From a virus (Duplodnaviria > Heunggongvirae > Uroviricota > Caudoviricetes): a stretch of DNA of 64,000 nt. The translations under genes were made by a program, and so were the position numbers. The stretch is from IMG/VR virus record IMGVR_UViG_3300032318_002198. The stretch is one strand, 5' to 3'. Positions within the stretch are counted from its first letter, which is position 1. Each line of letters begins with the position of its first letter. The notes beneath the pieces were generated by a model. The model ran no database searches. It saw nothing but the letters and a program-made list of their open reading frames with translations, and was not told the DNA's origin. Shown here piece after piece: positions 43,825-62,734 of this stretch.

Positions 43825-43889
43825 AGGATGCTTACAGCAAACTTTTATACATCAAACTTGTAATTTGAAACGTAAAAAAGCATCCTGTT
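43825..43889 (+). ncRNA. CAGCAA anticodon-stem-loop RNA, copy 1 (loop CT-TGT-AA)
   Basis: AGGATGCT/AGCATCCT closing stem, TACAGCAA, TCAAA/TTTGA hairpin. Confidence 0.7.
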
Positions 43890-43896
43890 GTATTAT

Positions 43897-43970
43897 AGAT
43901 CGCAAGCATTAAGGTGATGCAGTAGGCTCTTAACCTACAGAACACGGTCCAATACCGTGGCGTTCTACCA
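43897..43970 (+). tRNA. tRNA-Lys(CTT)
   Basis: GTAGG-CTCTTAA-CCTAC, CCA. Confidence 0.85.
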
Positions 43971-43978
43971 AATAATAA

Positions 43979-44054
43979 CTCGGATTGGGATAATAGGAAG
44001 TCCACTACGTTTGGGGCGTAGAAGGTGCAGGTTCGAAGCCTGTGTCCGAGACCC
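43979..44054 (+). tRNA. tRNA-Pro(TGG), second copy, ends ACCC
   Basis: CTCGGAT/GTCCGAG, CTACG-TTTGGGG-CGTAG. Confidence 0.8.
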
Positions 44055-44107
44055 TTGAGTCGATGTCAAGACTCGAACTTGTATAAATAAGAACACAGGA
44101 GGCATCT

Positions 44108-44758
44108 ATGTTCTATACAATATACAAGATAACAAATCAGATCAATGGCAAGTTCTATATAGGAAGTCATAAGACCAAAAATTTGAATGACGGATACATG
44201 GGCTCAGGTAAGTACTTAAAATACGCAAAAGAAAAATATGGTATAACAAATTTTACAAAAGAAATTTTGTTCATATTTGATACTCCTGAGCAAATGTATG
44301 CTAAAGAATCCGAAATAGTAAATGAAGAATTCCTCGCAACAGAAAATACCTATAATCTAAAAGTAGGAGGATTTGGCGGTTTTGATTACATTAACGCTAA
44401 TCCTGAAAAATATCTTACCGAAAAAAGATTATCTGCATTAATGCCACAGTCTGAAAGACTTAGGAGGTATAAAGAAAAATTAGATAATGATCCTAAATTT
44501 AGGGAGGAACAGGCGGGACGTATGAAAATCGCTCGAGAAAAATGGTCTCGTAAATACCCGCAAGGTGTTTGGTTAGGTAGAAAACATAGTAAAGAAACAT
44601 TGGCTAAATTAAAAAATTCTGCGAAAGGTAAAGGTCTCGGAGAAAAAAACTCACAATTTGGTACAATGTGGATTACAGACGGAATAAAAAATAAAAAAAT
44701 TAAAAAAGACAAGTTAGTTCCTGAAGGATGGAAATTAGGGCGTGTTTTAAAATCGTAA
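44108..44758 (+). CDS. GIY-YIG homing endonuclease with NUMOD3-like repeats
   Basis: FYTIYKITNQINGKFYIGSH..YMGSG; HSKETLAKL; TATAAATA and RBS-occluding hairpin at 44062-44106. Confidence 0.9.
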   Translation: MFYTIYKITNQINGKFYIGSHKTKNLNDGYMGSGKYLKYAKEKYGITNFTKEILFIFDTPEQMYAKESEIVNEEFLATENTYNLKVGGFGGFDYINANPEKYLTEKRLSALMPQSERLRRYKEKLDNDPKFREEQAGRMKIAREKWSRKYPQGVWLGRKHSKETLAKLKNSAKGKGLGEKNSQFGTMWITDGIKNKKIKKDKLVPEGWKLGRVLKS

Positions 44759-44761
44759 AAT

Positions 44762-44852
44762 TCACCGTAGGTATGGTGCCCCGGAACAGCGCGCAGCCGG
44801 TGAGGTTCGAGTCCTCTAGGTAAGTCAGGCTCGACTCCTGAACGGTGAGCCC
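44762..44852 (+). ncRNA. tRNA-like RNA with two T-arms
   Basis: TCACCGT/ACGGTGA acceptor-like stem; GAGG-TTCGAGT-CCTC and CAGG-CTCGACT-CCTG. Confidence 0.5.
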
Positions 44853-44938
44853 ATATTGAAGCACATTCTACCCATCTGTGGCACGGAACGGAGTCGTCAC
44901 AGAATGGAGAACAGACCTGTTTGAGTGTGTTTCAATAT
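44853..44938 (+). ncRNA. CACATT/AGTGTG stem RNA family, copy 3
   Basis: ATATTGAAGCACATT...AGTGTGTTTCAATAT. Confidence 0.6.
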
Positions 44939-44947
44939 GGCTAGACG

Positions 44948-45091
44948 ATAGTTTTGAGTCCCACCCAACCTAGCATGAGGGCTCACTTATGCGACTACAA
45001 CAGAGTGGTTGAACAGTGGTATCTGACTTGACTATCGAGACAATCCATCGAGGCCTACAATAGGGTAGGATAAGTGGGCTGCCAGAACTAT
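44948..45091 (+). ncRNA. unidentified structured RNA
   Basis: ATAGTTTT/AGAACTAT and GCTCACTTAT/ATAAGTGGGC nested stems. Confidence 0.4.
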
Positions 45092-45094
45092 ATT

Positions 45095-45129
45095 GGGGGA
45101 TAGGGACGCTGGGCGTTAACTGGTCTTGA
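45095..45129 (+). pseudogene. 5' half of tRNA-Ser(TGA), broken after the anticodon
   Basis: GGGGGATAGGGACGCTGGGCGTTAACTGGTCTTGA parallels 45741-45775. Confidence 0.85.
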
Positions 45130-45157
45130 CTTGTATAAATACAAGTAGGAGAAATAA

Positions 45158-45739
45158 ATGTATACTTGTAAATATTGTGGTAGAATTACAGAATCAGTAA
45201 ATTCAAATAGTAATCATCAGATTAGGTGTTCTTCAAATTCTGAAAGGTCTGTACAGAGGTCTGCAACCGGAAGACCTCTTGGTACTAAGGTCCTATCGTT
45301 AGTTGGAAAAAAATGGGGTGCAGCAATCAATGGTCATACTATCGAAACTAAACAGCGTTTATCAGTGATTGCAAAAGAACGGAATCTTGGAGGTTATGTA
45401 CAAGGGTCCGGAAGAGGCAAAAAGGGTTGGTACAAAGGATTCTTTTGTGATAGTAGTTGGGAACTTGCTTACGTTGTTTACTGTTTAGAACACAATATAG
45501 ACATTAAACGAAATACAGAGAAGCGACAATATATCTGGCAAGGAGTAGTTAAAAACTACCTACCAGATTTTATAGTTGAAGGAACTTTAACAGAAGTTAA
45601 AGGATATAAGACAGAACAATGGTTGGCAAAGTTAAAAGCAAATCCGGATGTTCGAGTTTTATACGAAAAAGACTTAGAACCTGTACTTGAATATGTTAAA
45701 GGCAAGTACGGAAAAGACTTCATAAATCTTTACGAATAA
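45158..45739 (+). CDS. PD-(D/E)XK (TnsA-like) homing endonuclease
   Basis: Zn-finger CKYC; DSSWEL...YLPDF...EVKGY. Confidence 0.75.
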   Translation: MYTCKYCGRITESVNSNSNHQIRCSSNSERSVQRSATGRPLGTKVLSLVGKKWGAAINGHTIETKQRLSVIAKERNLGGYVQGSGRGKKGWYKGFFCDSSWELAYVVYCLEHNIDIKRNTEKRQYIWQGVVKNYLPDFIVEGTLTEVKGYKTEQWLAKLKANPDVRVLYEKDLEPVLEYVKGKYGKDFINLYE

Positions 45740-45740
45740 C

Positions 45741-45827
45741 GGGGGATAGGGGGCTTGGAGCCTAACTGGTCTTGAAAACCAGCCCACTTAGGGATAGGTG
45801 ATTGTTCGATTCAATTATCCTCCGCCA
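45741..45827 (+). tRNA. tRNA-Ser(TGA)
   Basis: CTGGT-CTTGAAA-ACCAG, long variable arm, GCCA. Confidence 0.88.
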
Positions 45828-45886
45828 AATACTTTGACTTTACTGTTTAAGATAAGCATAATTATATTATACATATAGGAAAAATT

Positions 45887-46438
45887 ATGCTTGAAAATAA
45901 ACACAGTAAATTAATGAAAGAAGTAGTATGTAAATTCCATCCAGAATTTGTTAAAAGTGCCGATCTAAGAGATTATGGTACAAGGTACCCGGAAATTTTT
46001 AATATCGAACGTCTTGTAGAAGAAAGCCTAGCAGCAACTGGAGGCTATAATTTTGTTGACGAAGCTGGTAGAGATTTTGACGATACTGACAATAGCGATA
46101 GCAAAACAACCACTGTCGTGAACAATGACAAAGAGGGTTCAAGCAAAGTCTTCATTGTTAGCAATGTACAAACAAAGATAGGAAGCCTGAGAATTACATG
46201 CTTTAATCCTTTTAGTGATAAGGTAGATTACTTTTATGTACCGTCAGATCAGCGTGTTGTGCTGCAAGAAAATGATGGCAGTAAATACAGAGAACAGACA
46301 GGACATTGCAAGAGAATTAGAACGGTTTGGAGTGAGAAAACTGATTACTACAATAAGTTAGAAAACTTCAGAGTCGGAGATTTTGTTACTCTAGCAACAA
46401 GTAAAGATAAACAGAATATTGACACTCACCACGAATAA
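45887..46438 (+). CDS. hypothetical protein with own sigma70-like promoter
   Basis: ORF; TTGACT...CATAAT upstream. Confidence 0.65.
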   Translation: MLENKHSKLMKEVVCKFHPEFVKSADLRDYGTRYPEIFNIERLVEESLAATGGYNFVDEAGRDFDDTDNSDSKTTTVVNNDKEGSSKVFIVSNVQTKIGSLRITCFNPFSDKVDYFYVPSDQRVVLQENDGSKYREQTGHCKRIRTVWSEKTDYYNKLENFRVGDFVTLATSKDKQNIDTHHE

Positions 46439-46453
46439 ATATATAATATATAT

Positions 46454-46566
46454 TCGACCGTGAGTGGAATTGGCAGACCTCCGAAATTCCTATTATAGGG
46501 ATAAGGGACGGGATACACGACTTAGTCAAAGTATCTTTGTAGGTTCGAAACCTACCGGTCGGACCC
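46454..46566 (+). tRNA. tRNA-Leu-like RNA with aberrant enlarged anticodon arm (no readable anticodon)
   Basis: TCGACCG/CGGTCGG, GGAATTGGCAGAC D-loop, GTAGG-TTCGAAA-CCTAC T-arm, long variable arm. Confidence 0.5.
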
Positions 46567-46593
46567 ATTTAGATCGATAAGTAAATATATATT

Positions 46594-46683
46594 GGAACGG
46601 TCCCATAATGGTATTGGAGAGGATTGCTAATCCTTCGAGTTACGAAAGTAGCTTTCTGAGTTCGAGTCTCAGTCGTTCCGCCA
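46594..46683 (+). tRNA. tRNA-Ser(GCT)
   Basis: GAGGA-TTGCTAA-TCCTT, long variable arm, GCCA. Confidence 0.9.
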
Positions 46684-46691
46684 AACAATTT

Positions 46692-46722
46692 GCGGGTATG
46701 ATGTAAAGGTAACCTGAAACCT
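46692..46722 (+). pseudogene. 5' half of split tRNA-Gly
   Basis: GCGGGTA acceptor strand pairs with TACCCGC at 47262-47268. Confidence 0.85.
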
Positions 46723-46759
46723 ACGGTAAAGTATAAATACTAGTAGGAGATAGGTTACC

Positions 46760-47152
46760 ATGAAAACATATAACTGCGGACATTGCGGAATAGAATGTAA
46801 TTGGGCATATCAAGGCAACAATAAGTTTTGTAGTGTTCGATGTGCTCAAACATTTAGATCTTTAGAGCATAAGAAAAAATTCTTTTCTGGATTGTTAGAA
46901 AAACGAATAGATAGACCAACTGCTAGAAAATATCTAGCAGAGGCAAGAGGTTATAAGTGTGAGGTATGTAGCGTAAGTGATTGGCAAGGCAAGCCTATTA
47001 CTTTACACGTTGATCGTATAAACGGAGATCCGTCAAACGATCGCCCAGATAATTTAAGATTGATCTGCCCTAACTGTCACAGTCAAACCGAATTTCTTGG
47101 TGGTGCTAATAAAGGTAGAGGACGCGGTTCATTAGGAATCGCAAAGTATTAA
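46760..47152 (+). CDS. HNH endonuclease
   Basis: CEVC...LHVDRINGDPSND...NLRLICPNCHSQT; Arg at the usual first His position. Confidence 0.85.
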   Translation: MKTYNCGHCGIECNWAYQGNNKFCSVRCAQTFRSLEHKKKFFSGLLEKRIDRPTARKYLAEARGYKCEVCSVSDWQGKPITLHVDRINGDPSNDRPDNLRLICPNCHSQTEFLGGANKGRGRGSLGIAKY

Positions 47153-47154
47153 AT

Positions 47155-47230
47155 GCGGCTGTAGCTCAGTTGGTAGAGTACTTGCTTGCCAAGCAAGACG
47201 TCACGAGTTCGAACCTCGTTAGCCGCTCCA
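47155..47230 (+). tRNA. tRNA-Gly(GCC)
   Basis: CTTGC-TTGCCAA-GCAAG, TCCA. Confidence 0.95.
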
Positions 47231-47232
47231 AA

Positions 47233-47272
47233 CAAGGTGGGAGGAGGATTCACATTCTCCTTACCCGCTCCA
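47233..47272 (+). pseudogene. 3' half of split tRNA-Gly
   Basis: CAAGGT...T-arm-like GGAGGA/TTCTCC, TACCCGC-TCCA. Confidence 0.8.
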
Positions 47273-47278
47273 AATAAT

Positions 47279-47352
47279 GTCTCTCAAGCATTAAAGTGAT
47301 GTATCAGTCTCCAAAACTGAAGAACGCGGGGCGGTACCGTGGAGAGATGCCA
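47279..47352 (+). tRNA. tRNA-Trp(CCA)
   Basis: TCAGT-CTCCAAA-ACTGA, GCCA. Confidence 0.88.
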
Positions 47353-47368
47353 AAATTATAAATAGAAG

Positions 47369-47845
47369 ATGCGTATCAACGAAATATATTCACCTACTGT
47401 AGTATCCAAGTCAAAAATCCCAAATGCTGGGAATGGTCTGTTTGCAACGGAAAATATTCCAGCAGGAACATTGTTTGTTATAAACCCAATTATCACTATT
47501 AGTGAAAGTGATTGGAATAAGATTAAAGATACAGTTTTTGTAAAAAGAATGAGACTCAGTTGGACAAACAATGAAAAAGTTTTACCTGTTGGAAACATCG
47601 AGTATAAACTTTCTCCTGAAGATATTCCAGTATTTAGGTCAACTGATAGATTCAAAAATGGCGTATTTGTTAGTCCATTTTTACTTGTAAATCATAGTGA
47701 TGATCCAAATAGTGAACAAGTTATCGATGTTGCTCATAGAATGGTAGGATTAAGAGCCGTTAAGTTTATTGAGCAGGGTGAGGAAATAACAAAACGCTAC
47801 GACGGATTTGTTTCCAAGAAATCAGCATCGTTAGATTTTGATTAA
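47369..47845 (+). CDS. SET-domain lysine methyltransferase
   Basis: SKIPNAGNGLFA, VNHSDDPN, GEEITKRY. Confidence 0.85.
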   Translation: MRINEIYSPTVVSKSKIPNAGNGLFATENIPAGTLFVINPIITISESDWNKIKDTVFVKRMRLSWTNNEKVLPVGNIEYKLSPEDIPVFRSTDRFKNGVFVSPFLLVNHSDDPNSEQVIDVAHRMVGLRAVKFIEQGEEITKRYDGFVSKKSASLDFD

Positions 47846-47894
47846 AATAGATGGGCCAAAGGCTCGAGTCCTCGAAAGGACGCAAAAGTTTTTT

Positions 47895-47958
47895 AGGATG
47901 CTTACAGCAAACTTTATACATCAAACTGATAATTTGAAACGTAAAAAAGCATCCTGTT
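47895..47958 (+). ncRNA. CAGCAA anticodon-stem-loop RNA, copy 2 (loop CT-GAT-AA)
   Basis: Matches copy 1 except the anticodon triplet and one linker T. Confidence 0.7.
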
Positions 47959-47968
47959 GTATTTCTGT

Positions 47969-48043
47969 TGGGGGTAAATCGATTGGAGCAGATACTACTC
48001 TTTGAAAGTAGGTGACCAGGATCGTAACCTGGACCCCTAGCCC
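47969..48043 (+). tRNA. tRNA-Gln(TTG), ends GCCC
   Basis: CTACT-CTTTGAA-AGTAG. Confidence 0.82.
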
Positions 48044-48047
48044 GATA

Positions 48048-48914
48048 TTATTTAGAAATTAAATTTTCTACTTGAGATTTTATAAAATCTACTTCGCCAT
48101 AAAAAAGTGTGTTATTTTTAGAAATAGCATTTAATTTTTCTTGTGAAATTTTTATCTGATAAGAATTTTTTGGATCAAGATATACATTGTATTTTGTTAA
48201 ATAAAAATCCGGAAAATAGCGACGAAGTTTTCCGTTAGAATCAAACCATATAATATGTTTGGGTCTAACCCATTGTATTTGATGTGTGTCTAACCATTTT
48301 GCTATTTCTAATTCCCAGGAAGATTCTAATTTTAAAATCTCATTATTATGCAAATATTCGATAACAATCTTTCTATATGTTGAATTTTTTCTTTGACATT
48401 CAGGAGAACAAGTTTTTCTTAAAGTGTTTGCCCAAAACCAATTAGAACAACAAGCACAATAATTTCCGTATATTTTTGTGTAAGGACCATCTGCTCTAAA
48501 ATAGTTTCTTTGAGTTGATTTAACTTTCTTGATTTTAATAGGTTTAGGATCAATCCCTAATGTTTTAAAAAGAGTTAACCTTTGTTTTTCATAAACAGCA
48601 TAATTTCTATTTTTGTTATTAAAAGATGCATTGCAACTTCTACTACAAAACTTATTTTGCTTTTTATCATACGGCAACTGGACATTACAATTTTTACAAA
48701 GAGAACTATTTTTTAAATAATTTTCAATATTTTTTTCTAATACTTTTTTATTTTTAATTTTGTTATTATTTCTTGCATAATTATTTAAAGCAATAGTGCC
48801 TTTTTTCATATTTTTGATTTGTTCTTCATTGCCGTGAGAATGTAAGAAATGAGAAAAAATTCCTTTACTAGTTGTAAGTTTTTGACAGCAGATGCAGGAT
48901 GTAGGGTAAGTCAT
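48048..48914 (-). CDS. PD-(D/E)XK (TnsA-like) homing endonuclease, antisense
   Basis: Several Zn-finger CxxC motifs; LESSWEL...YFPDFYL...YLDPK. Confidence 0.75.
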   Translation of the reverse strand: MTYPTSCICCQKLTTSKGIFSHFLHSHGNEEQIKNMKKGTIALNNYARNNNKIKNKKVLEKNIENYLKNSSLCKNCNVQLPYDKKQNKFCSRSCNASFNNKNRNYAVYEKQRLTLFKTLGIDPKPIKIKKVKSTQRNYFRADGPYTKIYGNYCACCSNWFWANTLRKTCSPECQRKNSTYRKIVIEYLHNNEILKLESSWELEIAKWLDTHQIQWVRPKHIIWFDSNGKLRRYFPDFYLTKYNVYLDPKNSYQIKISQEKLNAISKNNTLFYGEVDFIKSQVENLISK

Positions 48915-48951
48915 AATATAATTAATGTTTATTAATATTTATCGTTTTAAT

Positions 48952-48975
48952 GTTCGATCCCTTCACCCTCTGCCA
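48952..48975 (+). pseudogene. orphan tRNA 3' fragment (T-loop plus acceptor strand)
   Basis: GTTCGATCCCTTC-ACCCTCT-GCCA. Confidence 0.7.
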
Positions 48976-48981
48976 AACAAT

Positions 48982-49058
48982 GTCCCGTTCGTCTAGATGG
49001 CTTAGGACCCCCGCCTTTCACGCGGACAACACCGGTTCGAATCCGGTACGGGATGCCA
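48982..49058 (+). tRNA. tRNA-Glu(TTC)
   Basis: CCGC-CTTTCAC-GCGG, GCCA. Confidence 0.92.
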
Positions 49059-49064
49059 ATTTTT

Positions 49065-49127
49065 AGGATGCTTCCAGCAAATTATGCAATTGCCTTCTAA
49101 GCAAACCAAGCAAAAAAGCATCCTGTT
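49065..49127 (+). ncRNA. CAGCAA anticodon-stem-loop RNA, copy 3 (loop CT-TCT-AA)
   Basis: AGGATGCT/AGCATCCT, TCCAGCAA, TTGC/GCAA hairpin. Confidence 0.65.
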
Positions 49128-49136
49128 TTATAATAT

Positions 49137-49212
49137 ACCCGCGTAACTCAGCGATTAGAGTAATCGGTTGATAACCGATAAGTCGTTGGTTTGAATCCAA
49201 CCGTGGGTACCA
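49137..49212 (+). tRNA. tRNA-Ile(GAT)
   Basis: ATCGG-TTGATAA-CCGAT, ACCA. Confidence 0.9.
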
Positions 49213-49234
49213 AGTTTTATCCCACTATAGCTCC

Positions 49235-49486: not shown

Positions 49487-49548
49487 CCTGGTGGAAGCAT
49501 GTGCCTGAAGAGCACGGGGGCTTGGATCGTAACCAAGAGTCGGGACCA
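49473..49548 (+). tRNA. tRNA-Phe(GAA)
   Basis: TGTGC-CTGAAGA-GCACG, ACCA. Confidence 0.85.
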
Positions 49549-49554
49549 TATATT

Positions 49555-49629: not shown

Positions 49630-49647
49630 TATATAATAAATAAAGTT

Positions 49648-50106: not shown

Positions 50107-50114
50107 GACCTACC

Positions 50115-50543: not shown

Positions 50544-50665
50544 GCCGCTGTAGTGTAATGGTTAGCACCTTAAGAAGGCTATCCTGTTTTAGGATACATA
50601 CAGCAAAATTTTTCAATTCCTCTGTTAAAGGAAGAGACTGGGTTCGAATCCCAGCAGCGGCGCCA
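50544..50665 (+). tRNA. tRNA-Asn(GTT) with 47-nt insertion between D-arm and anticodon arm
   Basis: GCCGCTG/CAGCGGC, TTCCT-CTGTTAA-AGGAA; insert 50569-50615 contains ATCCTGTT-TT-AGGATACATACAGCAA. Confidence 0.75.
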
Positions 50666-50672: not shown

Positions 50673-50776
50673 AGGATGATTTCAGCAAACAACTTATCGT
50701 CGCCAAAATCTGACGAGCCGACCCGTTTGGGGGTGTGTCGTGGGTTCGAGTCCCGGCTTAGACACAGCATCCTGTT
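50673..50776 (+). ncRNA. CAGCAA RNA family, long copy containing a T-arm
   Basis: AGGATG/CATCCT-GTT, TTCAGCAA, internal GGG-TTCGAGT-CCC. Confidence 0.6.
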
Positions 50777-50779
50777 AAT

Positions 50780-53197: not shown

Positions 53198-53480
53198 TGC
53201 GTGGGAAGCTTAAGTGGTTATAAGCACTGGTCTCATTCTTAAGAGTGCATCAGATGTAGAAATACGCTGTATGAATGGTGTCAAATTCGGTGAAACCTAA
53301 AGTAGAAATACTATGGCAATGCCGAGCCAAGCCTCAGTAGAAATACTGTTGAAGGTGTAGAGACTAGACGGCACCCCCCTAAGGTAGAAATACTACGGAG
53401 AAGGCATAGTCCAAGGAGTAAGGAAACTTACACAAACTTGAAACCAGAGACAGCGGGTTCAAATCCCGCACCACGCACCA
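53198..53480 (+). tRNA. tRNA-CAT (probably Ile2) split by a group I intron; exons 53198-53236 and 53441-53480
   Basis: Joined exons give TGCGTGG/CCACGCA and CTGGT-CTCATAA-ACCAG. Confidence 0.88.
53237..53440 (+). ncRNA. group I self-splicing intron (IC3-like, 204 nt, no ORF)
   Basis: P1 CAT/GTG with U-G at the splice site; P AAATTCGGTGAA, Q AATGCCGAGCCAAG, R GTAGAGACTAGACGG, S GGCATAGTCC; terminal G; GAAA tetraloops. Confidence 0.9.
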
Positions 53481-53487: not shown

Positions 53488-54114
53488 ATGTCTAAATGGA
53501 ACTACACTGAATCTGTTCCTGACACACTCTACGTTGCCTGTTCTGGTGGTGTAGATAGTGTTGCCGCAGCAGCAATTCTCGGTGAATGGCGTGATGTAAC
53601 TCTGTTGCATTTTAGTCACACTGATCACGCTCATGTTCAAGAACTCGAAACAGTGAGTGAATTGGCATTTCAATTGAAAGTGCCTTTAATCACCAGTTAT
53701 CAAACTCAGGCTCAAACTACAGGGAATAAAGAAGCACAATGGCGCGATGCTAGATATGCGTGGTTTCATAGTTTAGATCTACCGGTAGCAACTGGCCATA
53801 CTCTCGAAGATTGCGTTGAGTGGTATCTAATGACTTGTTTGCGAGGACGTGGGGAGTATATGCCACATCGTAATCGTAATGTGTTTCGTCCATTCTTACT
53901 TACTGAAAAGTATCATTTGTACAAATATTGTAAACATAGAAATTTGACTTGGTGGGAAGATCCTGGAAATTATAGTTCAGAATTTAGCCTACGCAGTCGT
54001 GTTAGACAAAATTTGGTTCCGGCAGCACTTGAGTGTGAGCCAGGATTGAAAAATATGGTCAAGCGTAAATTAGTTGAGAAAATTAGTAGAGATAAAATGC
54101 TAGTTGACAATTAA
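53488..54114 (+). CDS. tilS: tRNA(Ile)-lysidine synthetase (N-terminal catalytic domain only)
   Basis: SGGVDS PP-loop, RDARY, TGHTLED, RPFL, WWEDPGN, RSRVRQ. Confidence 0.88.
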   Translation: MSKWNYTESVPDTLYVACSGGVDSVAAAAILGEWRDVTLLHFSHTDHAHVQELETVSELAFQLKVPLITSYQTQAQTTGNKEAQWRDARYAWFHSLDLPVATGHTLEDCVEWYLMTCLRGRGEYMPHRNRNVFRPFLLTEKYHLYKYCKHRNLTWWEDPGNYSSEFSLRSRVRQNLVPAALECEPGLKNMVKRKLVEKISRDKMLVDN

Positions 54115-56337: not shown

Positions 56338-56422
56338 TCCGCGGTACTCAAGTGGTACGAGGCCTGGCTGTTAACCAGAGACGCCGAAAGGCACGTAGGT
56401 TCGATCCCTACCCGCGGAGCCA
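56338..56422 (+). tRNA. tRNA-Asn(GTT) with long variable arm
   Basis: CTGG-CTGTTAA-CCAG; variable hairpin GCC-GAAA-GGC. Confidence 0.85.
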
Positions 56423-56448: not shown

Positions 56449-56520
56449 ACCCCCGCCAATGGATTGGCAGCAGGCCTTCTAAGCCAGTTTGTGTGGGTTC
56501 GAATCCTACCGGGGGTGCCA
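56449..56520 (+). tRNA. tRNA-Arg(TCT)
   Basis: GGC-CTTCTAA-GCC, GCCA. Confidence 0.85.
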
Positions 56521-57405: not shown

Positions 57406-57816
57406 AAAACTTATACTCATTACATTCAAATCCAGAGCAATTGTTTGGATATGATCAAGCAAATTATCGTGTACCTGAAATGGCATATCAATTGGCTAAA
57501 GAAAAACCTGAATTAAGAAAACAGTTAGAACCGGTTATAATGAAAGATCCTGAATGGGCATATCGTTATGCTAGAAATATTCTCAAAAGGCCCTGGTGCT
57601 GGGCCTGATCGCCCTGTCGCTCACCTTCCTGGGCGGCTACGGCGGCATGGTCTCGCTGGCGCAGATGTCGGTGGCCGGCATGGCCGGCTACGGCGTGGCC
57701 ATCTTCGGCGCCAGCAGCACGCCTATCAGCCTGGGCTGGCCTTGGTGGCTGGCGGTCCTCTTCGGTGGAACCTGTATCAAGAATTTGAACATAGTTATCG
57801 GGGCCGGATCACATGA
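57402..57816 (+). pseudogene. 23-aa repeat protein interrupted by foreign DNA
   Basis: Family N-terminus and C-terminus (WNLYQEFEH, compare WWGFYQEFKH) now in different frames. Confidence 0.75.
57590..57768 (+). other. ~180-bp GC-rich bacterial fragment (branched-chain amino-acid ABC permease, LivM-like)
   Basis: Abrupt GC rise; translates ALVLGLIALSLTFLGGYGGMVSLAQMSVAGMAGYGVA, like LivM ...L.GY.G.VSLG...F.G.GAY. Confidence 0.8.
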
Positions 57817-59207
57817 GAGCTAGAGAATTTTTACTTGAATATAGGAGAGATATAACCGCCAATAATTTCGGTGATGCTCTATTCAAAACCCTAGATAAAA
57901 CTCCGAACCATGCAGTACCGGATGAATTATATTCATTTGGCGTAATTTCCGACATGGCCCTTCGATTTACGAATTACGAACATGATATTAAAAAGGCAGT
58001 CGTCTATTTTTCGTTTGGCAAATGGTATACTATAACCACCGCTGAATCAGCAATGGCGGCATTACAAGAACTAAAACCAAAAGCAATTGATGCTATACTT
58101 TCAATAATCGAAGAAGCAGATCCTACACCGAATAAAATGTACACACAATGGCTTATAAGAATGTGGATAAATGGCAACGGTGATACTTTATTAGAAGACT
58201 TAAATCGCAACCAGATTCTTACTGCATATCATAGAGCCAAATCAAAAAATTTAATTAAGCCAGAAGATAAAGATATTAATAAATTCAAAAATTATCGTGA
58301 CTTTGAAAAAACCATCAGAAGTAAGTATGATATAAACGTCTTATTGGGATTGGAAGCATCAGCATTTGAAAAAGGTAATTATAAGGTTTTATTGGATAAT
58401 GATGATGTAATTGTTGTTCAATTATTGGATTTAAAAGCCAGTGAATATTGGGGTGAAAAATATAATCCCAATAAAGAACGTAGAGCCGAATGGTGTACAT
58501 TACAACCTGATAACTTTAACTACTATACAAACCGAGGTCCACTATATGTAATTAAACCAAAAAAAGAATTGTTCCCTGGCGAAAAATATCAATTCCATCT
58601 TCCATCTGGTCAGTTTATGGACATCTATGACCACCCGGCTAACTTTTACTATATAGTAAATCACAAATATCCAGAACTAAAGGATCTATTTATTAAGCTC
58701 GAACCGGGTTTAACAAATACCATAATGTTTGCAGACGATAATTTAGTGATAGGTATTTGGAAAGGTATAATGGAAATAGCATATGATCAAGCAATTGAGG
58801 ATATCGAACGATTTGAGACTATGGAAAATGAGCGTTGGTACCCACATAAGAATTATAATGAATCAAAAAAAACATTTTTACAAGACATAAAAGAAATAAG
58901 TAATGCAAGTGCTGAATATATAAAAAAACTAACTCTAGAGTATGTTGATCGGTTAAACGAAGAAATGAATGACATAGGGAATTTTTTCGAACAAACAAAC
59001 TTAACTCATTTAGTCAACATTTTGGCAATGACTGTTAAATACGATACGACGCTACTCACCATAGAAGAATTTACTCCATTTGAAGAACTACCTGACTATA
59101 TACAATCTAGCATATTAATAACCAAAGGTCTCCCGCCATCACGAAATAAAAGAATAATTAAAGTCGGTTCGTGGAGAGTAGTAGATGTCGGTAGCCAGAA
59201 CTCATAA
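57813..59207 (+). CDS. hypothetical late protein, MRxREF family, PcfJ-like motif
   Basis: MRAREFLLEY; EWCTL...YYTNRGPLY; paralogue of 14740. Confidence 0.65.
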   Translation: MRAREFLLEYRRDITANNFGDALFKTLDKTPNHAVPDELYSFGVISDMALRFTNYEHDIKKAVVYFSFGKWYTITTAESAMAALQELKPKAIDAILSIIEEADPTPNKMYTQWLIRMWINGNGDTLLEDLNRNQILTAYHRAKSKNLIKPEDKDINKFKNYRDFEKTIRSKYDINVLLGLEASAFEKGNYKVLLDNDDVIVVQLLDLKASEYWGEKYNPNKERRAEWCTLQPDNFNYYTNRGPLYVIKPKKELFPGEKYQFHLPSGQFMDIYDHPANFYYIVNHKYPELKDLFIKLEPGLTNTIMFADDNLVIGIWKGIMEIAYDQAIEDIERFETMENERWYPHKNYNESKKTFLQDIKEISNASAEYIKKLTLEYVDRLNEEMNDIGNFFEQTNLTHLVNILAMTVKYDTTLLTIEEFTPFEELPDYIQSSILITKGLPPSRNKRIIKVGSWRVVDVGSQNS

Positions 59208-59209
59208 AA

Positions 59210-59824
59210 TTAAGGTATTATTTCCCAATTAACACTAGGGTCTAAAGTTTCGCCTTTTTGAGGATATACTTCTAATAGATACATATGTAGTTTTTCAAAA
59301 AAATCTTTATATGGTGGTATAAAATGATTTCTTTGAATTTCTATACTTACATATCCCGGTTGACCGTTGTGCTCTGTAGCAGAGACCAATTGATCTACTA
59401 ACGACTGAAATTCGGTCTCGTTAAAAATTAACGATAATTGTTTCGTTTGTTTAAATATTGTTTTAGCATGTTCTGGAGTAATTTGATCACTCTTCCCCCA
59501 ATATGCTAGTATAGAATTTTTTTGAGGTAAAAACCTTAGATAAAAACCGCCTTCCCAATCAGTATCGATAGTATCATCAACTCGATAACGATCGAGTTCG
59601 GGAGAGGAAAATACATTCGAAGATGGTTTTGAATTATTCGGTTTAGGTGAAGTAATGGCATGAGGTAATGCTTTGCTCAATTTACGATTTGCTATATCTT
59701 TGATACGTTTATCATCTGCTGCTTTTGCAGCCTGTTGTTGAGCTAATTTTTCTCTACGTTCAGCTTCACGACGACGATCACGCTCGCCTTTGCTGATTTC
59801 ATTGATAATTTCTTTTATGTACAT
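59210..59824 (-). CDS. hypothetical late protein, MxIxEI family
   Basis: MYIKEIINE; TAAATA upstream on minus strand. Confidence 0.65.
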   Translation of the reverse strand: MYIKEIINEISKGERDRRREAERREKLAQQQAAKAADDKRIKDIANRKLSKALPHAITSPKPNNSKPSSNVFSSPELDRYRVDDTIDTDWEGGFYLRFLPQKNSILAYWGKSDQITPEHAKTIFKQTKQLSLIFNETEFQSLVDQLVSATEHNGQPGYVSIEIQRNHFIPPYKDFFEKLHMYLLEVYPQKGETLDPSVNWEIIP

Positions 59825-60123
59825 AATAATATATTTATGCCTGACATAATAACAAATACATGTTACACTACTTACATAAATTAAGTTGTTCTTTAAGTAT
59901 TAAGTTTGTAGATAAGAAATGACTTGGTCCACAAACTTAATAAATAAAAACTGTTGACAGCAGAAAATAATTTTGCTACAATATGTACATGTTAAGAAAT
60001 TAACAAAACAGAAAAGTTGTTCGCTGTAAAGAAAACACTTCTGCTAGTTCTGAAAATACACGGTGATGATTATAATCCGTGAGCATGGACCAGTCAATCA
60101 ACGTTCTTTAAAATTGATATAAC

Positions 60124-60216
60124 AATGTTCTTAACATTGTTGAATACATTAAAACAAACCTGATCAGTTTGTCGTAAATATTTTGACATTTATAGTGTAT
60201 TCAACAATGTTAAGAA
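60124..60216 (+). ncRNA. stem-closed RNA related to CACATT family
   Basis: TTCTTAACATTGTTGAATACA/TGTATTCAACAATGTTAAGAA 21-bp stem. Confidence 0.5.
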
Positions 60217-60304
60217 TTCAAGGGGTGCTTAAACTCCTGTAACGTATGGTTCGCCCAGCGTTACAAAGAATAACTGTGGTGACACAGCCAAAGCAGTAGT
60301 CCTC

Positions 60305-60410
60305 CACTATACTAAAGCACAAAAACAGTTCTTCTCTATATAAGTCCTTGTTGCATTAGAGTATTGAGTAATACTACAGAAATTCTGTTGTAGTGTGGTT
60401 TAGTATAGTG
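60305..60410 (+). ncRNA. CACATT/AGTGTG stem RNA family, copy 7
   Basis: CACTATACTAAAGCACA...AGTGTGGTTTAGTATAGTG. Confidence 0.55.
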
Positions 60411-60545
60411 AAAATCGAGTGAGGCGATCACATAGAGCAACGATGCATAAGAGATTAAGGTTACGTGATCATACCGTTCTTTCTGGTACGTGCATCTGCC
60501 GTCTGGGACAAACTCGACCCAGTGTTAGTTACGATAACATCAACG

Positions 60546-60618
60546 CTATACTAAAGCACATTGACAGCGCGGTCGTATTCAGTTACGGTGCCAAGCGGGA
60601 TAGTGTGTTTTATTATAG
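60546..60618 (+). ncRNA. CACATT/AGTGTG stem RNA family, copy 8
   Basis: CTATACTAAAGCACATT...AGTGTGTTTTATTATAG. Confidence 0.6.
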
Positions 60619-60722
60619 TGAAAACTATTGACGTTGGAAAGACAACTATGGCTCATGATTTATTCTGTCAACGATACAAGGGCTGGGCTGTTCCTTGTAT
60701 GTCGGACGATACGTAACCGACA

Positions 60723-60795
60723 CCATATCGAAGCGCATTTGGATTGAAGAGATTTTGCGGTTTCCTTGGTTGCTAACAAGTGTGTTTCAATATGG
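60723..60795 (+). ncRNA. CACATT/AGTGTG stem RNA family, copy 9
   Basis: CCATATCGAAGCGCATT...AGTGTGTTTCAATATGG. Confidence 0.6.
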
Positions 60796-60812
60796 TAAAG
60801 AATTTGAAAAGT

Positions 60813-60886
60813 GATGCCATAGCCGAGTGGTTAGGCGGAAGTCTGCAAAACTTTATAGGATGGTTCGATTCCATCTGGCATCTCCA
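60813..60886 (+). tRNA. tRNA-Cys(GCA)
   Basis: GAAGT-CTGCAAA-ACTTT, TCCA. Confidence 0.92.
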
Positions 60887-60889
60887 AGT

Positions 60890-61086
60890 TTTGTTAAGTG
60901 TGTCTCAGATAGGAGGACGCTGTAGGCATACAGTGTAAGATGATAACGGTTCGAGTCCGACAGTACGGCAACTATCATCCAATTGTCATTGTGACGTACC
61001 CTAAGAGTAGCAATACTCATAACCGCACCCGGGATAATTTGCGGAGAATGTAGCCTATGTATGTGGTGGCTTAACACTTAACAAAT
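60890..61086 (+). ncRNA. unidentified ~195-nt structured RNA containing a T-loop motif
   Basis: TTTGTTAAGTGT/ACACTTAACAAA closing stem; GGTTCGAGTCC; GAGTA-GCAA-TACTC. Confidence 0.5.
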
Positions 61087-61106
61087 TTATATTAAGGTGA
61101 AATGAA

Positions 61107-61451
61107 ATGAATTTTAACATTGATCCAAAGTTTTTAACATCGATAACTATCTACAAAGAATATAATAAATTGGAGGATCCAAAAAATCCTACCAAAAATG
61201 ATCTTATTCTTATGATGAAGAATCAACATTATTGGTCAACGTTCTATTCTGAAGATACTCCAGAATTTTCAAAATTAAGATCTGAACTAAAAGAGTTGGG
61301 GTTTATTAAAGTTGAAAATCGTTGGTGGAATGGAGATCAAGTGTTGAAAACATTTTATCTCAATGGTGCTAGGTTTGATAAGGAAGAACAATTTCCATGC
61401 GCGTCAGCAATGAAATATACAATCGAAAGTAAATTCAAGTTCTATAAATAA
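61107..61451 (+). CDS. hypothetical protein
   Basis: ORF with AAGG RBS. Confidence 0.6.
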   Translation: MNFNIDPKFLTSITIYKEYNKLEDPKNPTKNDLILMMKNQHYWSTFYSEDTPEFSKLRSELKELGFIKVENRWWNGDQVLKTFYLNGARFDKEEQFPCASAMKYTIESKFKFYK

Positions 61452-61510
61452 TGAAGCAGGCAGCCGGCTGGTAGTCGGACGAGGAAAATAATTCATAACT
61501 AATATTATGC

Positions 61511-61598
61511 AGCGGAATAGTTTAATCGGCAAAACACGGGGCTCATAACCCCGGGACATCTAATGCAAGTCCTGGTTCGACTCCAGGTTCCGCAACCA
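61511..61598 (+). tRNA. initiator tRNA-fMet(CAT) with enlarged variable region
   Basis: 1:72 mismatch, CGGGG-CTCATAA-CCCCG (3 G:C pairs). Confidence 0.85.
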
Positions 61599-61615
61599 AA
61601 TAAAGAAAGCTATAT

Positions 61616-61828
61616 ATGAAAATTCTCGAAAACACTAAAAAGTTAATTTCAGATAATGGTTCTTATAAAGTATATGCTGAATTATGTGAAATGGATAATG
61701 AGTCCAATACAAATTGTCTCAAATTCAAAACAGTATATAGTGATGCAACAGATCCTACATACGAACAAACTAAGTTTGAAATGTTTTTGAACAAAGATCA
61801 GTTGCAAAGACTAAAAGAATTGTTGTAA
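61616..61828 (+). CDS. hypothetical protein
   Basis: ORF track. Confidence 0.55.
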   Translation: MKILENTKKLISDNGSYKVYAELCEMDNESNTNCLKFKTVYSDATDPTYEQTKFEMFLNKDQLQRLKELL

Positions 61829-61855
61829 AATAGTTATACTAACTAAAGAGGATAT

Positions 61856-61987
61856 ATGGCAAAACTAGCAAATGATCGAAAAAAGGTTGTAAAACGTACA
61901 TGTCAAGGTGGTACACAACCAAAAACATCAAGTATGAATAAAACGCAAAAGCGTAGTTTCAAAGCATATCGCGGTCAAGGAAGATAA
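61856..61987 (+). CDS. small basic protein ending YRGQGR
   Basis: GAGGA RBS; MAKLANDRKKVVKRTCQGG...FKAYRGQGR*. Confidence 0.65.
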   Translation: MAKLANDRKKVVKRTCQGGTQPKTSSMNKTQKRSFKAYRGQGR

Positions 61988-61991
61988 TATT

Positions 61992-62210
61992 GTGGCTGTT
62001 AAATCATTAACTAATAATATCGACTATGAAAAATGCGCTGAGAACATTGGCAATAGATTTGAAATGGTTCTAGTTGCTACTCATCGTGCTCGTGAATTGA
62101 AAAAAGGATATGCTAAAAATGTTGGTACACCTAATGGAAATATTGTAACTGCATTACAAGAAATTCAAGAAGGGCATATTGGTAGAGAATACCTGAAGAA
62201 AATCAAATAA
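61992..62210 (+). CDS. rpoZ: RNA polymerase omega subunit
   Basis: IGNRFEMVLVATHRAREL...VTALQEIQEG. Confidence 0.88.
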   Translation: MAVKSLTNNIDYEKCAENIGNRFEMVLVATHRARELKKGYAKNVGTPNGNIVTALQEIQEGHIGREYLKKIK

Positions 62211-62268
62211 ATAAAAACAACAACGTTGTTGACATAGAACAAAAATATCAATATAATAAAAGGAATAT

Positions 62269-62442
62269 ATGATTAAACCAACGAGTAGTTACAAGATGAG
62301 TAAACAGGTTAAGACGATTCTTAATCGATATAGTGATCCGCATCTTCGTGGCGAAATGAAGCGCGGGTGGATTCAAGCAGAGATTGAGGCGGCTATTCGA
62401 CCCAAGGCGGATAAAAAGAATCGTGAACAAGGAGATAATTAA
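62269..62442 (+). CDS. small hypothetical protein (57 aa)
   Basis: TTGACA/TATAAT promoter and AAGGA RBS; MIKPTSSYKMSKQVK... Confidence 0.6.
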   Translation: MIKPTSSYKMSKQVKTILNRYSDPHLRGEMKRGWIQAEIEAAIRPKADKKNREQGDN

Positions 62443-62449
62443 AGAATAA

Positions 62450-62483
62450 GCCCCGTTAGTTCTAGTGGTAAAACATCGGTTTT
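62450..62483 (+). pseudogene. 5' half of tRNA (Thr-like), broken in the anticodon loop
   Basis: GCCCCGT-TA-GTTCTAGTGGTAAAAC-A-TCGGT-TTT. Confidence 0.75.
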
Positions 62484-62590
62484 TAAATTTTTGTATAAAT
62501 AAAATAAAAGATTTAAAAATGGCATGCCGAAAAAAAATTGAATGCGTCTCTTGCAGGAAGCAAATTACAAAAAATAATATCAATAAAGAA
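62484..62590 (+). pseudogene. decayed homing-endonuclease 5' end
   Basis: TATAAATA at 62494; ATG 62524 MPKKIECVSCRKQITKNNINK Zn-finger start. Confidence 0.55.
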
Positions 62591-62596
62591 TATATT

Positions 62597-62670
62597 GCCA
62601 CACTCGTATAATGGTATTACGACTGATTTGTAATCAGTTTACGCGGGTCCGATTCCTGCGTGTGGCACCA
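62597..62670 (+). tRNA. tRNA-Thr(TGT)
   Basis: ACTGA-TTTGTAA-TCAGT, ACCA. Confidence 0.92.
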
Positions 62671-62675
62671 AATTT

Positions 62676-62734
62676 AGGATCCATGCAGCAAATTAAAAAA
62701 TCAAATTGCAACTTTGAAAAAATCGGATCCTGTT
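62676..62734 (+). ncRNA. CAGCAA anticodon-stem-loop RNA (loop TT-GCA-AC)
   Basis: AGGATCC/GGATCCT compensated stem, GCAGCAA, TCAAA/TTTGA hairpin. Confidence 0.65.

What the first reader, a model, noticed from the sequence alone, without database searches (positions are those of the whole stretch)
43825..62734. Small-RNA family that displays swappable anticodon stem-loops (candidate tRNA decoys)
Seen: copies at 43825, 47895, 49065, 62676 and 50673 share AGGAT..CAGCAA..ATCCTGTT with a covarying closing stem. Four carry a 4-5 bp hairpin with a 7-nt anticodon-type loop: CT-TGT-AA (Thr), CT-GAT-AA (Ile), CT-TCT-AA (Arg), TT-GCA-AC (Cys). Copies 1 and 2 are identical except for the anticodon and one T. 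These four lack D-arm, T-arm and CCA. Each anticodon also occurs in a full tRNA here. Inference: minimal anticodon mimics that titrate anticodon nucleases, modification enzymes or synthetases, with CAGCAA as a protein-binding tag (an RNA-repair or Ro60-type partner is one testable guess). I recognise no named family. This is the strongest candidate for an undescribed system.
Basis: partly seen in the sequence, partly recalled or inferred. Interest (0 to 1): 0.9.

Follow-up and report, generated by a model that had tools for sequence, protein, structure and literature searches.

The report
Phage Y-like RNAs displaying anticodon loops
The repeats are genes for a widespread, uncatalogued family of small phage RNAs, each a fixed stem-and-bulge handle topped by a variable tRNA-like part, often a bare anticodon hairpin; in other phages they lie next to the gene of a Ro60-like ring protein, so they are most likely that protein's Y-RNA-type partners.

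Summary
Four short copies (43825, 47895, 49065, 62676), one long copy (50673) and a sixth handle inserted in a tRNA-Asn-like gene (50570-50616) share a 7-bp closing helix, a bulged CAGCAA and a 3' CUGUU. Rfam has no family for them.

The handle recurs in hundreds of viral contigs, almost always in tRNA arrays. I found no convincing copy in 120 rows of a bacterial and archaeal genome scan. Its cargo varies: anticodon-type hairpins in 70 of 153 unique short forms (1 expected by chance), YrlA-like permuted tRNA domains, and other RNAs.

The handle co-occurs with a ~475-aa DUF2828/DUF7788 protein whose model matches Ro60 over its whole length. All six element-bearing genomes at least 90% complete encode it. 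Of 80 loci fetched by the protein alone, 67 carry the RNA on the same strand, often 30-36 nt upstream of the gene. Felix O1 and Synechococcus phage BUCT-ZZ01 have the pair too.

This window has no such gene, so the pairing here is inferred. The decoy function is untested.

The scan found this family before on other DNA (e1-1864722) and reached the same reading, which I tested independently. Short forms also resemble Dictyostelium Class I RNAs.

Verdict: new variant of a known kind.

The parts
43825..43889 (+). Short copy 1: closing helix AGGATGC/GCATCCT, bulge with CAGCAA, apical 5-bp hairpin with loop CTTGTAA (UGU, Thr-type), 3' GTT. It lies 6 nt after the CCA of tRNA-Asp and 7 nt before tRNA-Lys.
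   Evidence: model R1 72.4 bits (a seed member); Rfam RF01414 23.0 bits, below threshold
47895..47958 (+). Short copy 2: same scaffold as copy 1, loop CTGATAA (GAU, Ile-type); followed by tRNA-Gln.
   Evidence: 73.4 bits; RF01414 23.8 bits
49065..49127 (+). Short copy 3: 4-bp hairpin TTGC/GCAA with loop CTTCTAA (UCU, Arg-type); lies between tRNA-Glu and tRNA-Ile.
   Evidence: 63.3 bits
62676..62734 (+). Short copy 4: helix AGGATCC/GGATCCT, hairpin TCAAA/TTTGA with loop TTGCAAC (GCA, Cys-type); lies 5 nt after tRNA-Thr(TGT).
   Evidence: 59.8 bits; RF01414 24.5 bits
50673..50776 (+). Long copy: same handle (AGGATG...CATCCTGTT, CAGCAA). Its cargo is a hairpin with an 8-10-nt loop, a variable-arm-like hairpin and a T-arm-like hairpin (GGGTTCGAGTCCC). 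Close relatives occur in L004, L013, L063, L100 and L102.
   Evidence: 22.4 bits
50544..50665 (+). tRNA-Asn(GUU)-like gene carrying the handle as a hairpin between the D arm and the anticodon arm. ARAGORN misses it; the Rfam tRNA model finds it.
   Evidence: (RF00005 42.9 bits with a 61-nt insert state). The same chimera occurs with other anticodons in L001 (GTC) and L013 (GCA).
50570..50616 (+). The 47-nt insert at tRNA position 26/27. The 3' half of the handle (..TATCCTG) comes first, then loop TTTT, then the 5' half (AGGATA, N, CAGCAA), which ends about 10 nt before the anticodon stem.

Best explanation
These are genes for small non-coding RNAs of the Y-RNA type.

Anatomy. Each RNA has a constant handle and a variable display module. 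The handle is a 7-bp helix joining the 5' and 3' ends (AGGAUNN/NNAUCCU), a bulged CAGCAA(A) immediately 3' of the 5' strand, and a 3' tail GUU. The module in the four short copies here is a bare anticodon stem-loop. Elsewhere it is a whole, circularly permuted tRNA-like domain as in bacterial YrlA, or some other RNA.

Shown by comparison:
- The handle is conserved and covaries.
- It is confined to phage DNA in what I searched.
- It sits in tRNA arrays, typically 5 nt after a CCA end.
- It is linked, in position and in occurrence, to the gene of a DUF2828/DUF7788 protein whose predicted fold is that of Ro60 (a helical-repeat ring plus a vWA domain).

Inferred:
- The RNAs are cut out of the tRNA transcript.
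- The handle docks on the Ro-like ring, as the bulged stem of a Y RNA docks on Ro60.
- The displayed tRNA mimic brings a tRNA-recognising protein to the ring or holds it there. Candidates are an exoribonuclease such as PNPase (as in the Ro60/Y RNA/PNPase complex), an anticodon nuclease or a modification enzyme.

Odds: the RNP pairing about 0.7; the decoy or tether role of the anticodon loops about 0.3.

The genome this window comes from should encode the Ro-like protein outside these 64 kb.
For: - Family size and context. More than 120 viral stretches hold the pattern and about 77 are real closed copies, many with several per locus. I collected 277 unique elements. In 154 a CCA lies 4-8 nt upstream (mode 5), the AGGAT-to-CAGCA spacing is always 5 nt, and the 3' flank is GTT in 237 of 277.
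- RNA-level selection. Two helix pairs covary with all four Watson-Crick types. BUCT-ZZ01 shows compensatory changes inside the otherwise invariant pairs (AGGUUGC/GCAACCU, AGAAUGA/UCAUUCU). Felix O1 uses a different helix (AGACCNN/NNGGUCU) with the same UACAGCAA bulge.
- Partner, forward test. The commonest neighbouring ORF is a ~475-aa DUF2828+DUF7788 protein, present in 22 of 77 loci. DUF7788 is found in 20 of 25 element-bearing records, in all 6 that are at least 90% complete, and in 0 of 3 records without the element.
- Partner, reverse test. Of 80 loci fetched by the protein alone, 67 hold a closed handle. In 79 of them all 164 exact handle starts are on the gene's strand and none on the other. 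Often a short copy ends 30-36 nt before the start codon.
- Fold. The model has pLDDT 80 and pTM 0.78. The top 13 PDB hits are all Ro60/TROVE structures, including Thermus phage phiLo Ro60, with TM 0.43-0.62 (by query) for 12 of the 13 (0.37 for human apo Ro60, 9nen). The top Swiss-Prot hits are Ro60 of Deinococcus, mouse, frog and human.
- Continuity with known Y RNAs. A long form (L033) aligns end to end with Rfam YrlA at 25.9 bits. The homologous protein of a mycobacteriophage, annotated 'Ro-like RNA binding protein', is followed by a YrlA-like RNA at 39.8 bits. Chen et al. 2014 (PMC4201824) and the phiLo study (PMC12135203) establish that phage Ro60 binds adjacent stem-bulge Y-like RNAs.
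- Anticodon mimicry. 70 of 153 short forms have a 5-bp stem and a YU-NNN-RN loop, against 1.0 in shuffles. The triplets are UUU 19, UGU 14, UCU 9, GUA 6, UGA 5 and so on; 69 of 70 end in U36 or A36.
Against: - The window has no Ro-like gene. Pfam on 63 ORFs, tblastn and a six-frame profile search all fail, best E 0.33. No whole genome is held, so the pairing is not shown for this phage.
- Pfam TROVE does not recognise the protein (0 of 28 records). The Ro60 likeness rests on a predicted fold at 11-15% identity.
- The bulge motif (CAGCAA) differs from the Ro-binding motif of known Y RNAs (GNCGAA, GGUCCGA). No copy reaches the gathering score of any Rfam family.
- Most records with both RNA and protein have Ro-like proteins 65-79% identical, so part of the co-occurrence may be shared descent. 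Felix O1 (40%) and BUCT-ZZ01 (47%) are the only deeper samples examined.
- No expression or binding data exist.
- Other conserved neighbours could be the true binder: a metallophosphoesterase, an RNaseH-like protein and a dual-specificity phosphatase.
Confidence: 0.65

Rival explanations
1. Free-standing anticodon decoys. The short RNAs act alone as minimal anticodon-arm mimics that soak up host anticodon nucleases or tRNA-modifying enzymes. The handle only gives stability or defines the processing ends, with no Ro-like partner.
For: Anticodon-type loops are enriched about 70-fold over shuffles. They are biased to Lys-UUU, Thr-UGU, Arg-UCU, Tyr-GUA and Asn-GUU types with A37. From my own knowledge, these overlap the tRNAs attacked by known anticodon nucleases. 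The window has the RNAs but no Ro-like gene.
Against: More than half of the family carries no anticodon-type loop. The handle, not the loop, is the conserved part, and it tracks the Ro-like gene in both directions of the test. A stability element would not need an invariant bulge conserved from cyanophages to Felix O1.
Confidence: 0.15
2. Processing or splicing signal for split and permuted tRNA genes. The helix plus bulge marks cut-and-join sites, as the bulge-helix-bulge motif does for permuted tRNAs of the red alga Cyanidioschyzon. Long forms would then mature into working tRNAs, the 47-nt insert in tRNA-Asn would be an intron, and short forms would be empty remnants.
For: Some cargoes are complete tRNAs in permuted order with 7-bp acceptor hairpins (L006, L014). 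The handle occurs as a closed hairpin exactly at position 26/27 of otherwise intact tRNAs in three unrelated contigs. The two topologies are circular permutations of each other.
Against: Many acceptor hairpins are only 4 bp closed by a tetraloop, and some anticodon loops are abnormal, as in YrlA. The most abundant forms have no tRNA body at all. RtcB is in 1 of 28 records, and an Rnl2-type ligase in 7 of 28, including a control. No known self-cleaving ribozyme model matches.
Confidence: 0.08
3. Transcript punctuation: structured spacers that guide RNase P or RNase E cleavage or termination within the tRNA operon, with no function after release.
For: Copies sit 5 nt after a CCA and a few nt before the next tRNA. 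The 7-bp helix followed by G resembles an acceptor stem with its discriminator base. U-rich flanks surround it.
Against: Most tRNA junctions in the same arrays have no such element. The invariant bulge, the variable structured cargo and the linkage to one protein family are not needed for punctuation.
Confidence: 0.07
4. Non-functional DNA: a miniature inverted-repeat mobile element, or decayed tRNA genes left by the homing endonucleases that crowd this array.
For: The element has terminal inverted repeats. Many homing endonuclease genes and split tRNAs lie in the same region.
Against: Compensatory base changes keep the helix. Orientation is strictly one strand, 164 to 0. Single-stranded motifs are conserved across distant phages. 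No convincing copy turned up in the cellular genomes sampled.
Confidence: 0.03

Closest known systems
Bacterial and phage Y RNAs (YrlA/YrlB of Salmonella, Yrn1 of Deinococcus, mycobacteriophage YrlA-like RNAs, Yrl1/Yrl2 of Thermus phage phiLo): PMC4201824, PMC12135203, Rfam RF02553
   Same: [quoted passage not shown] The second module is variable and often mimics tRNA (variable arm, T arm, closed acceptor hairpin, D arm in permuted order). Genes lie next to, and on the strand of, a Ro60-type ring protein gene, often two or more RNAs per gene. Long forms align full-length to the YrlA model.
   Different: The bulge motif is CAGCAA, not GNCGAA. The helix sequence is fixed within a lineage. The protein is the DUF2828/DUF7788 branch, which Pfam TROVE misses. 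Copies are scattered through tRNA arrays, up to tens of kb from the gene. Many members are cut down to a bare anticodon hairpin, which known Y RNAs lack. The handle can also sit as a hairpin inside an intact tRNA. Scores are far below the Rfam threshold (25.9 against 69 bits).
Class I RNAs of dictyostelid social amoebae (Rfam RF01414; PMC7919456)
   Same: Length of 42-65 nt. A 6-7-bp stem joins the ends. A conserved motif ending ..ACAGCAA lies directly after the 5' strand; copies 1 and 2 here match CUUACAGCAA exactly. The 3' end is a conserved CUGU. The rest is variable. It is the only non-tRNA Rfam model that hits the short copies, at 23-30 bits and full-length.
   Different: The scores are below the gathering score of 41.5. 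Class I RNAs have their own upstream promoter element and were reported only from Dictyostelia. Their known direct binder is an RRM protein. Whether amoebae pair them with a DUF2828 protein was not testable here. The likeness may be convergent.
Circularly permuted tRNA genes (Cyanidioschyzon merolae, Thermofilum); from my own knowledge and reviews found
   Same: The 3' part of a tRNA is encoded upstream of the 5' part, and the ends are held by a leader-trailer helix.
   Different: Here the joining helix carries a conserved protein-type handle, not a bulge-helix-bulge. No splicing endonuclease or obligatory ligase accompanies it. Many tRNA bodies could not mature. YrlA offers a closer precedent.
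Small stable RNAs in the tRNA clusters of T-even and T5 phages; from my own knowledge, not tested
   Same: Non-tRNA small RNAs are co-transcribed and processed with phage tRNAs.
   Different: No sequence or structural comparison was made here, and no shared motif is known to me.

Membership tests
Y RNA / YrlA (RF02553) | Encoded close to, and on the same strand as, a Ro60-type protein gene | tested here: inconclusive
   Met for the family: 67 of 80 protein-anchored loci carry the RNA, strand ratio 164:0, and gaps to the gene are as short as 30-36 nt. Not met in this window: no Ro-like gene in 64 kb, and no whole genome is held.
Y RNA / YrlA (RF02553) | Terminal 5'-3' stem flanking a bulge that holds the conserved Ro-binding motif (GNCGAAN0-1G or GGUCCGA) | tested here: not met
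   The stem and the bulge are present and covary, but the motif is CAGCAA(A), not GNCGAA.
Y RNA / YrlA (RF02553) | tRNA-like domain: T arm, closed acceptor-like hairpin and D arm | tested here: inconclusive
   Present in 51 of 64 mid-length relatives, judged by the T-loop motif, and in L033. Absent from the window's four short copies. The copy at 50673 has only a T-arm-like hairpin.
Y RNA / YrlA (RF02553) | Reaches the Rfam gathering score (69 bits) | tested here: not met
   L033 long form 25.9 bits. No YrlA hit anywhere in the window.
Y RNA / YrlA (RF02553) | Physically bound by the Ro60-type protein | not testable with these tools
   Needs EMSA, RIP or a structure. The complex predictor takes proteins only.
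Ro60 / TROVE proteins (the presumed partner, DUF2828+DUF7788) | Ring of helical repeats plus a C-terminal vWA domain | tested here: met
   Predicted model pLDDT 80. The top 13 PDB and top 5 Swiss-Prot structural hits are Ro60, aligned over more than 500 columns. Pfam finds a weak VWA match.
Ro60 / TROVE proteins (the presumed partner, DUF2828+DUF7788) | Matches Pfam TROVE (PF05731) | tested here: not met
   0 of 28 records, while 20 of the same 28 hold DUF7788. A profile search of PDB sequences gives no significant hit.
Dictyostelid Class I RNA (RF01414) | 42-65 nt, short stem joining the ends, 11-nt motif CCUUACAGCAA after the 5' strand, 3' CUGU | tested here: met
   Short copies are 59-65 nt with a 7-bp stem. 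Copies 1 and 2 carry CUUACAGCAA. CAGCAA is invariant in all 82 aligned forms, and all end ..CUGUU.
Dictyostelid Class I RNA (RF01414) | Reaches the Rfam gathering score (41.5 bits); upstream DUSE promoter; dictyostelid host | tested here: not met
   Scores are 23.0, 23.8 and 24.5 bits in the window and 30.3 bits in L106. These are phage genes inside a tRNA operon; the DUSE promoter was not looked for.
tRNA (RF00005) | Cloverleaf with acceptor stem, D, anticodon and T arms | tested here: not met
   No tRNA hit on the four short copies or on 50673. Only the gene at 50544-50662 passes, at 42.9 bits, with the handle as an insert.

The most novel reading that the evidence does not exclude
The CAGCAA handle may be the recognition mark of a second, DUF2828-type branch of Ro proteins found from phages to eukaryotes. 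On that reading the Class I RNAs of Dictyostelium, abundant RNAs whose mode of action is unknown, are the same kind of RNA: Y-like partners of a DUF2828 protein. They would be related by ancestry or by capture from phages of the amoeba's bacterial prey.

Within phages, the anticodon modules would form a swappable panel. Each would tether the Ro-like ring to, or decoy, one class of anticodon-directed host nuclease. The tRNA chimeras would be tRNAs tagged for the same ring.
Probability: 0.2. Interest if true: 0.85.

Novelty: new variant of a known kind. Interest (0 to 1): 0.72.

Why it matters
Ro60 and Y RNAs are known from animals, bacteria and a few phages, but what the RNA's second module does is still largely open.

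This branch is very large. More than 7,300 related proteins were scored in metagenomes (capped), 702 isolate phage records encode the protein, and there are several RNA genes per genome. It also reaches classical laboratory phages such as Felix O1, so it can be tested at once.

Its RNAs make the modular logic unusually plain. One fixed handle carries anything from a full tRNA mimic down to a 17-nt anticodon arm, and two copies in this window differ only in the anticodon. That suggests selection on which tRNA is mimicked, and it links Ro-type RNPs to the current work on tRNA-targeting defence and phage tRNA arrays.

The handle inserted into otherwise intact tRNAs is, as far as I could find, unreported. 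The likeness to Dictyostelium Class I RNAs gives that unsolved RNA class a concrete candidate partner to test.

Tried and rejected
- Known RNA families. Rfam at gathering scores gives only tRNAs, a tmRNA and a group I intron. Permissive scans of the copies give no ribozyme or riboswitch, only weak Class I hits.
- Close relatives of the window. Megablast of 7.5 kb against isolate phages finds only tRNA fragments. A search with the 464-aa ORF found no close viral contig.
- Whole genome and reads. Neither is held or offered.
- Canonical Ro60. Pfam TROVE is absent from all 28 records. This nearly led me to drop the Ro idea, until unbiased clustering of neighbouring ORFs surfaced DUF2828/DUF7788.
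- The 464-aa repeat protein inside the array (57813-59207). It has no Pfam or PHROG match and only weak solenoid likeness, and it is absent from five complete element-bearing genomes. Rejected as the partner.
- RNA repair enzymes as obligatory partners. RtcB is in 1 of 28 records and an Rnl2-type ligase in 7 of 28, including a control.
- Cellular genomes. The scan returned chance-level hits: 21 of about 130 pass a loose stem test against about 15% expected, and none is in tRNA context.
- Splicing or permuted-tRNA maturation, small ORFs, a MotA-box or Shine-Dalgarno reading of AGGAT, and a kink-turn. I considered these from the sequence and dropped them because they hold for only some copies.
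- The Dictyostelium link. Literature and structure-library searches gave no organism names and no description of DDB_G0281243. Left open.
- One Rfam call on ten loci was filled by tRNA rows and told me nothing.

Full report
**What is in the window**

The right third of the window (43.6-63.2 kb) is a phage tRNA array: 29 of the 30 tRNAs that ARAGORN finds, a group I intron and many homing-endonuclease genes. The rest of the window holds cyanophage-type genes: heme oxygenase, a bilin reductase, Hsp20 and ribonucleotide reductase.

AGGAT-N4-12-CAGCAA occurs six times on the + strand of the array, against 0.26 matches expected. Each copy is closed by ..ATCCTGTT.

The four short copies (43825, 47895, 49065, 62676) are 59-65 nt. 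Each has a 4-5-bp hairpin with a 7-nt loop: CTTGTAA, CTGATAA, CTTCTAA or TTGCAAC. Copies 1 and 2 differ only in the anticodon and one T.

Three of the four short copies start 5-6 nt after the CCA of a tRNA (copy 2 does not) and three end 7-9 nt before the next tRNA (copy 4 has none within 220 nt).

One claim fails. No full tRNA-Arg(TCT) is detected in the window.

**Two further members here**

The copy at 50673-50776 has the same handle around a larger cargo that includes a T-arm-like hairpin.

At 50544-50665 a tRNA-Asn(GUU)-like gene, missed by ARAGORN but scored at 42.9 bits by the Rfam tRNA model, carries the handle as a 47-nt hairpin (50570-50616). It sits between position 26 and the anticodon stem, with the 3' half of the handle before the 5' half.

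The same chimera exists with Asp and Cys anticodons in two unrelated viral contigs.

**The family**

Together with the loci fetched later, I collected 277 unique elements.

- The AGGAT-to-CAGCA spacing is always 5 nt.
- The 3' flank is GTT in 237 of 277.
- A CCA lies 4-8 nt upstream in 154.

Five base pairs of the helix are invariant in this lineage. The next two are paired in every copy and use all four Watson-Crick types. Position 8 is mostly open.

That alignment was selected for pairing. I therefore recounted in 79 loci chosen by a protein alone. There, 157 of 164 handle starts are closed, against 6% for random placement, and all 164 lie on one strand.

Synechococcus phage BUCT-ZZ01 shows compensatory changes even inside the 'invariant' pairs. 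Felix O1 uses another helix (AGACCNN/NNGGUCU) with the same UACAGCAA bulge.

The scan of bacterial and archaeal genomes returned only chance-level hits. Rfam has no family for the element. This is a phage RNA gene under selection for structure, not a DNA repeat.

**The cargo**

- Short forms (153 unique): 106 hold a perfect 5-bp stem with a 7-nt loop (14 expected), and 70 have an anticodon-type loop (1.0 +/- 1.1 expected). The triplets are UUU 19, UGU 14, UCU 9, GUA 6, UGA 5, GUU 3, GGA 3 and others. Sixty-nine of 70 end in U or A, followed by A37 or, in two copies, G37.
- The other short forms carry different conserved hairpins.
- Mid-length forms (64): 51 contain a T-loop motif. They are tRNA-like domains in permuted order, namely variable hairpin or anticodon arm, T arm, a closed acceptor hairpin and D arm. 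This is the layout described for YrlA (PMC4201824). One of them aligns end to end with the Rfam YrlA model at 25.9 bits.
- Sixty longer forms, mostly 150-250 nt, hold unknown RNAs.

**The partner**

A note from an earlier agent on another genome (e1-1864722) read the same repeat as a partner of a phage Ro-like protein. My first test went against it: Pfam TROVE is absent from 28 records, including five complete genomes with the element.

I then clustered all ORFs around 77 element loci without any prior. The commonest neighbour was a ~475-aa DUF2828+DUF7788 protein.

- Forward test: DUF7788 is in 20 of 25 element-bearing records, in all six that are at least 90% complete, and in none of three controls.
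- Reverse test: 67 of 80 loci fetched by the protein alone hold the RNA, mostly just upstream of the gene. In many, a short copy ends 30-36 nt before the start codon and a longer one precedes it.
- Fold: the AlphaFold model (pLDDT 80) matches Ro60 structures over its full length. These are the top 13 PDB hits and include the Thermus phage phiLo Ro60. The top Swiss-Prot hits are also Ro60.
- Spread: the protein is in 702 isolate phage records, among them Felix O1 ORF86 (directly upstream of its tRNA array), Listeria, Staphylococcus and Campylobacter phages, and mycobacteriophages that annotate it as 'Ro-like RNA binding protein'.
- Link to known Y RNAs: in one such mycobacteriophage a YrlA-like RNA (39.8 bits) follows the gene, as Chen et al. 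reported.

RtcB and RNA ligases do not track the element.

**Limits**

This window itself has no Ro-like gene, and its genome is not held. In complete genomes the gene can lie 30-55 kb from some copies, so absence from 64 kb is not a contradiction. For this phage, however, the pairing remains a prediction.

Binding, expression, RNA ends and any decoy effect are untested. Many of the co-occurring records are related to one another.

**An unexpected likeness**

The only non-tRNA Rfam model that touches the short copies is the Dictyostelium Class I RNA model, at 23-30 bits and always full-length.

According to PMC7919456, Class I RNAs are 42-65 nt. They have a 6-bp stem joining the ends, an 11-nt motif CCUUACAGCAA after the 5' strand, and a conserved 3' CUGU. 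This is the same plan as the phage short forms.

DUF2828/DUF7788 proteins also exist in eukaryotes. I could not check dictyostelids.

**Verdict**

This is a large, uncatalogued variant of the Y RNA/Ro60 system, with minimal anticodon-displaying members and tRNA chimeras.

Noticed in passing
window 12017-12499: A two-piece (permuted) tmRNA gene (RF04321 104 bits, RF01850 90 bits) is followed at 12425-12499 by a tRNA with anticodon CUA, which ARAGORN calls Pyl (Rfam tRNA 50 bits). This may be a phage amber-suppressor tRNA.
   Followed up: no
window 53224-53433 and 53488-54114: A group I intron (62 bits) sits in the tRNA array just upstream of a 208-aa ORF.
   Followed up: no
window 62805-62862: A degenerate handle-like stretch (AGGATCTACTT CAGCAG ... 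ATATCCTAG) lies 70 nt after copy 4. Model R1 does not detect it, and it lacks both the G after the helix and the CAGCAA.
   Followed up: partly
L333 (Salmonella phage Felix O1) 9703-10560: Four unannotated relatives lie between tRNA genes just downstream of ORF86, the Ro-like protein gene. They use the helix AGACCNN/NNGGUCU-GG with the bulge UACAGCAA. One carries a permuted tRNA-like domain. This is a ready laboratory system.
   Followed up: partly
L278, L279, L283, L286 and about 20 other loci, 30-36 nt upstream of the Ro-like gene: A short copy sits at a fixed distance before the start codon, often with a ..CAUAA.. loop, and a 150-240-nt copy precedes it. The spacing suggests the RNA may also act in cis on translation of the protein.
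   Followed up: no
L002, L015, L022 and other element loci: Three other genes recur near the elements: a calcineurin-like metallophosphoesterase (20 loci), an RNaseH-like PF04308 protein (17) and a dual-specificity phosphatase (11). They may be RNA-end-healing enzymes or merely syntenic.
   Followed up: partly
window 56338-56422 and 56449-56517: The second tRNA-Asn(GTT) is 85 nt, long for its class. A weak tRNA-like match (26.6 bits) follows it.
   Followed up: no
window 57813-59207: A 464-aa ORF inside the tRNA array has no Pfam or PHROG match. Its nearest Atlas clusters are viral solenoid-repeat proteins (DUF4116, LRR and ankyrin-like). It is absent from five complete element-bearing genomes.
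   Followed up: partly
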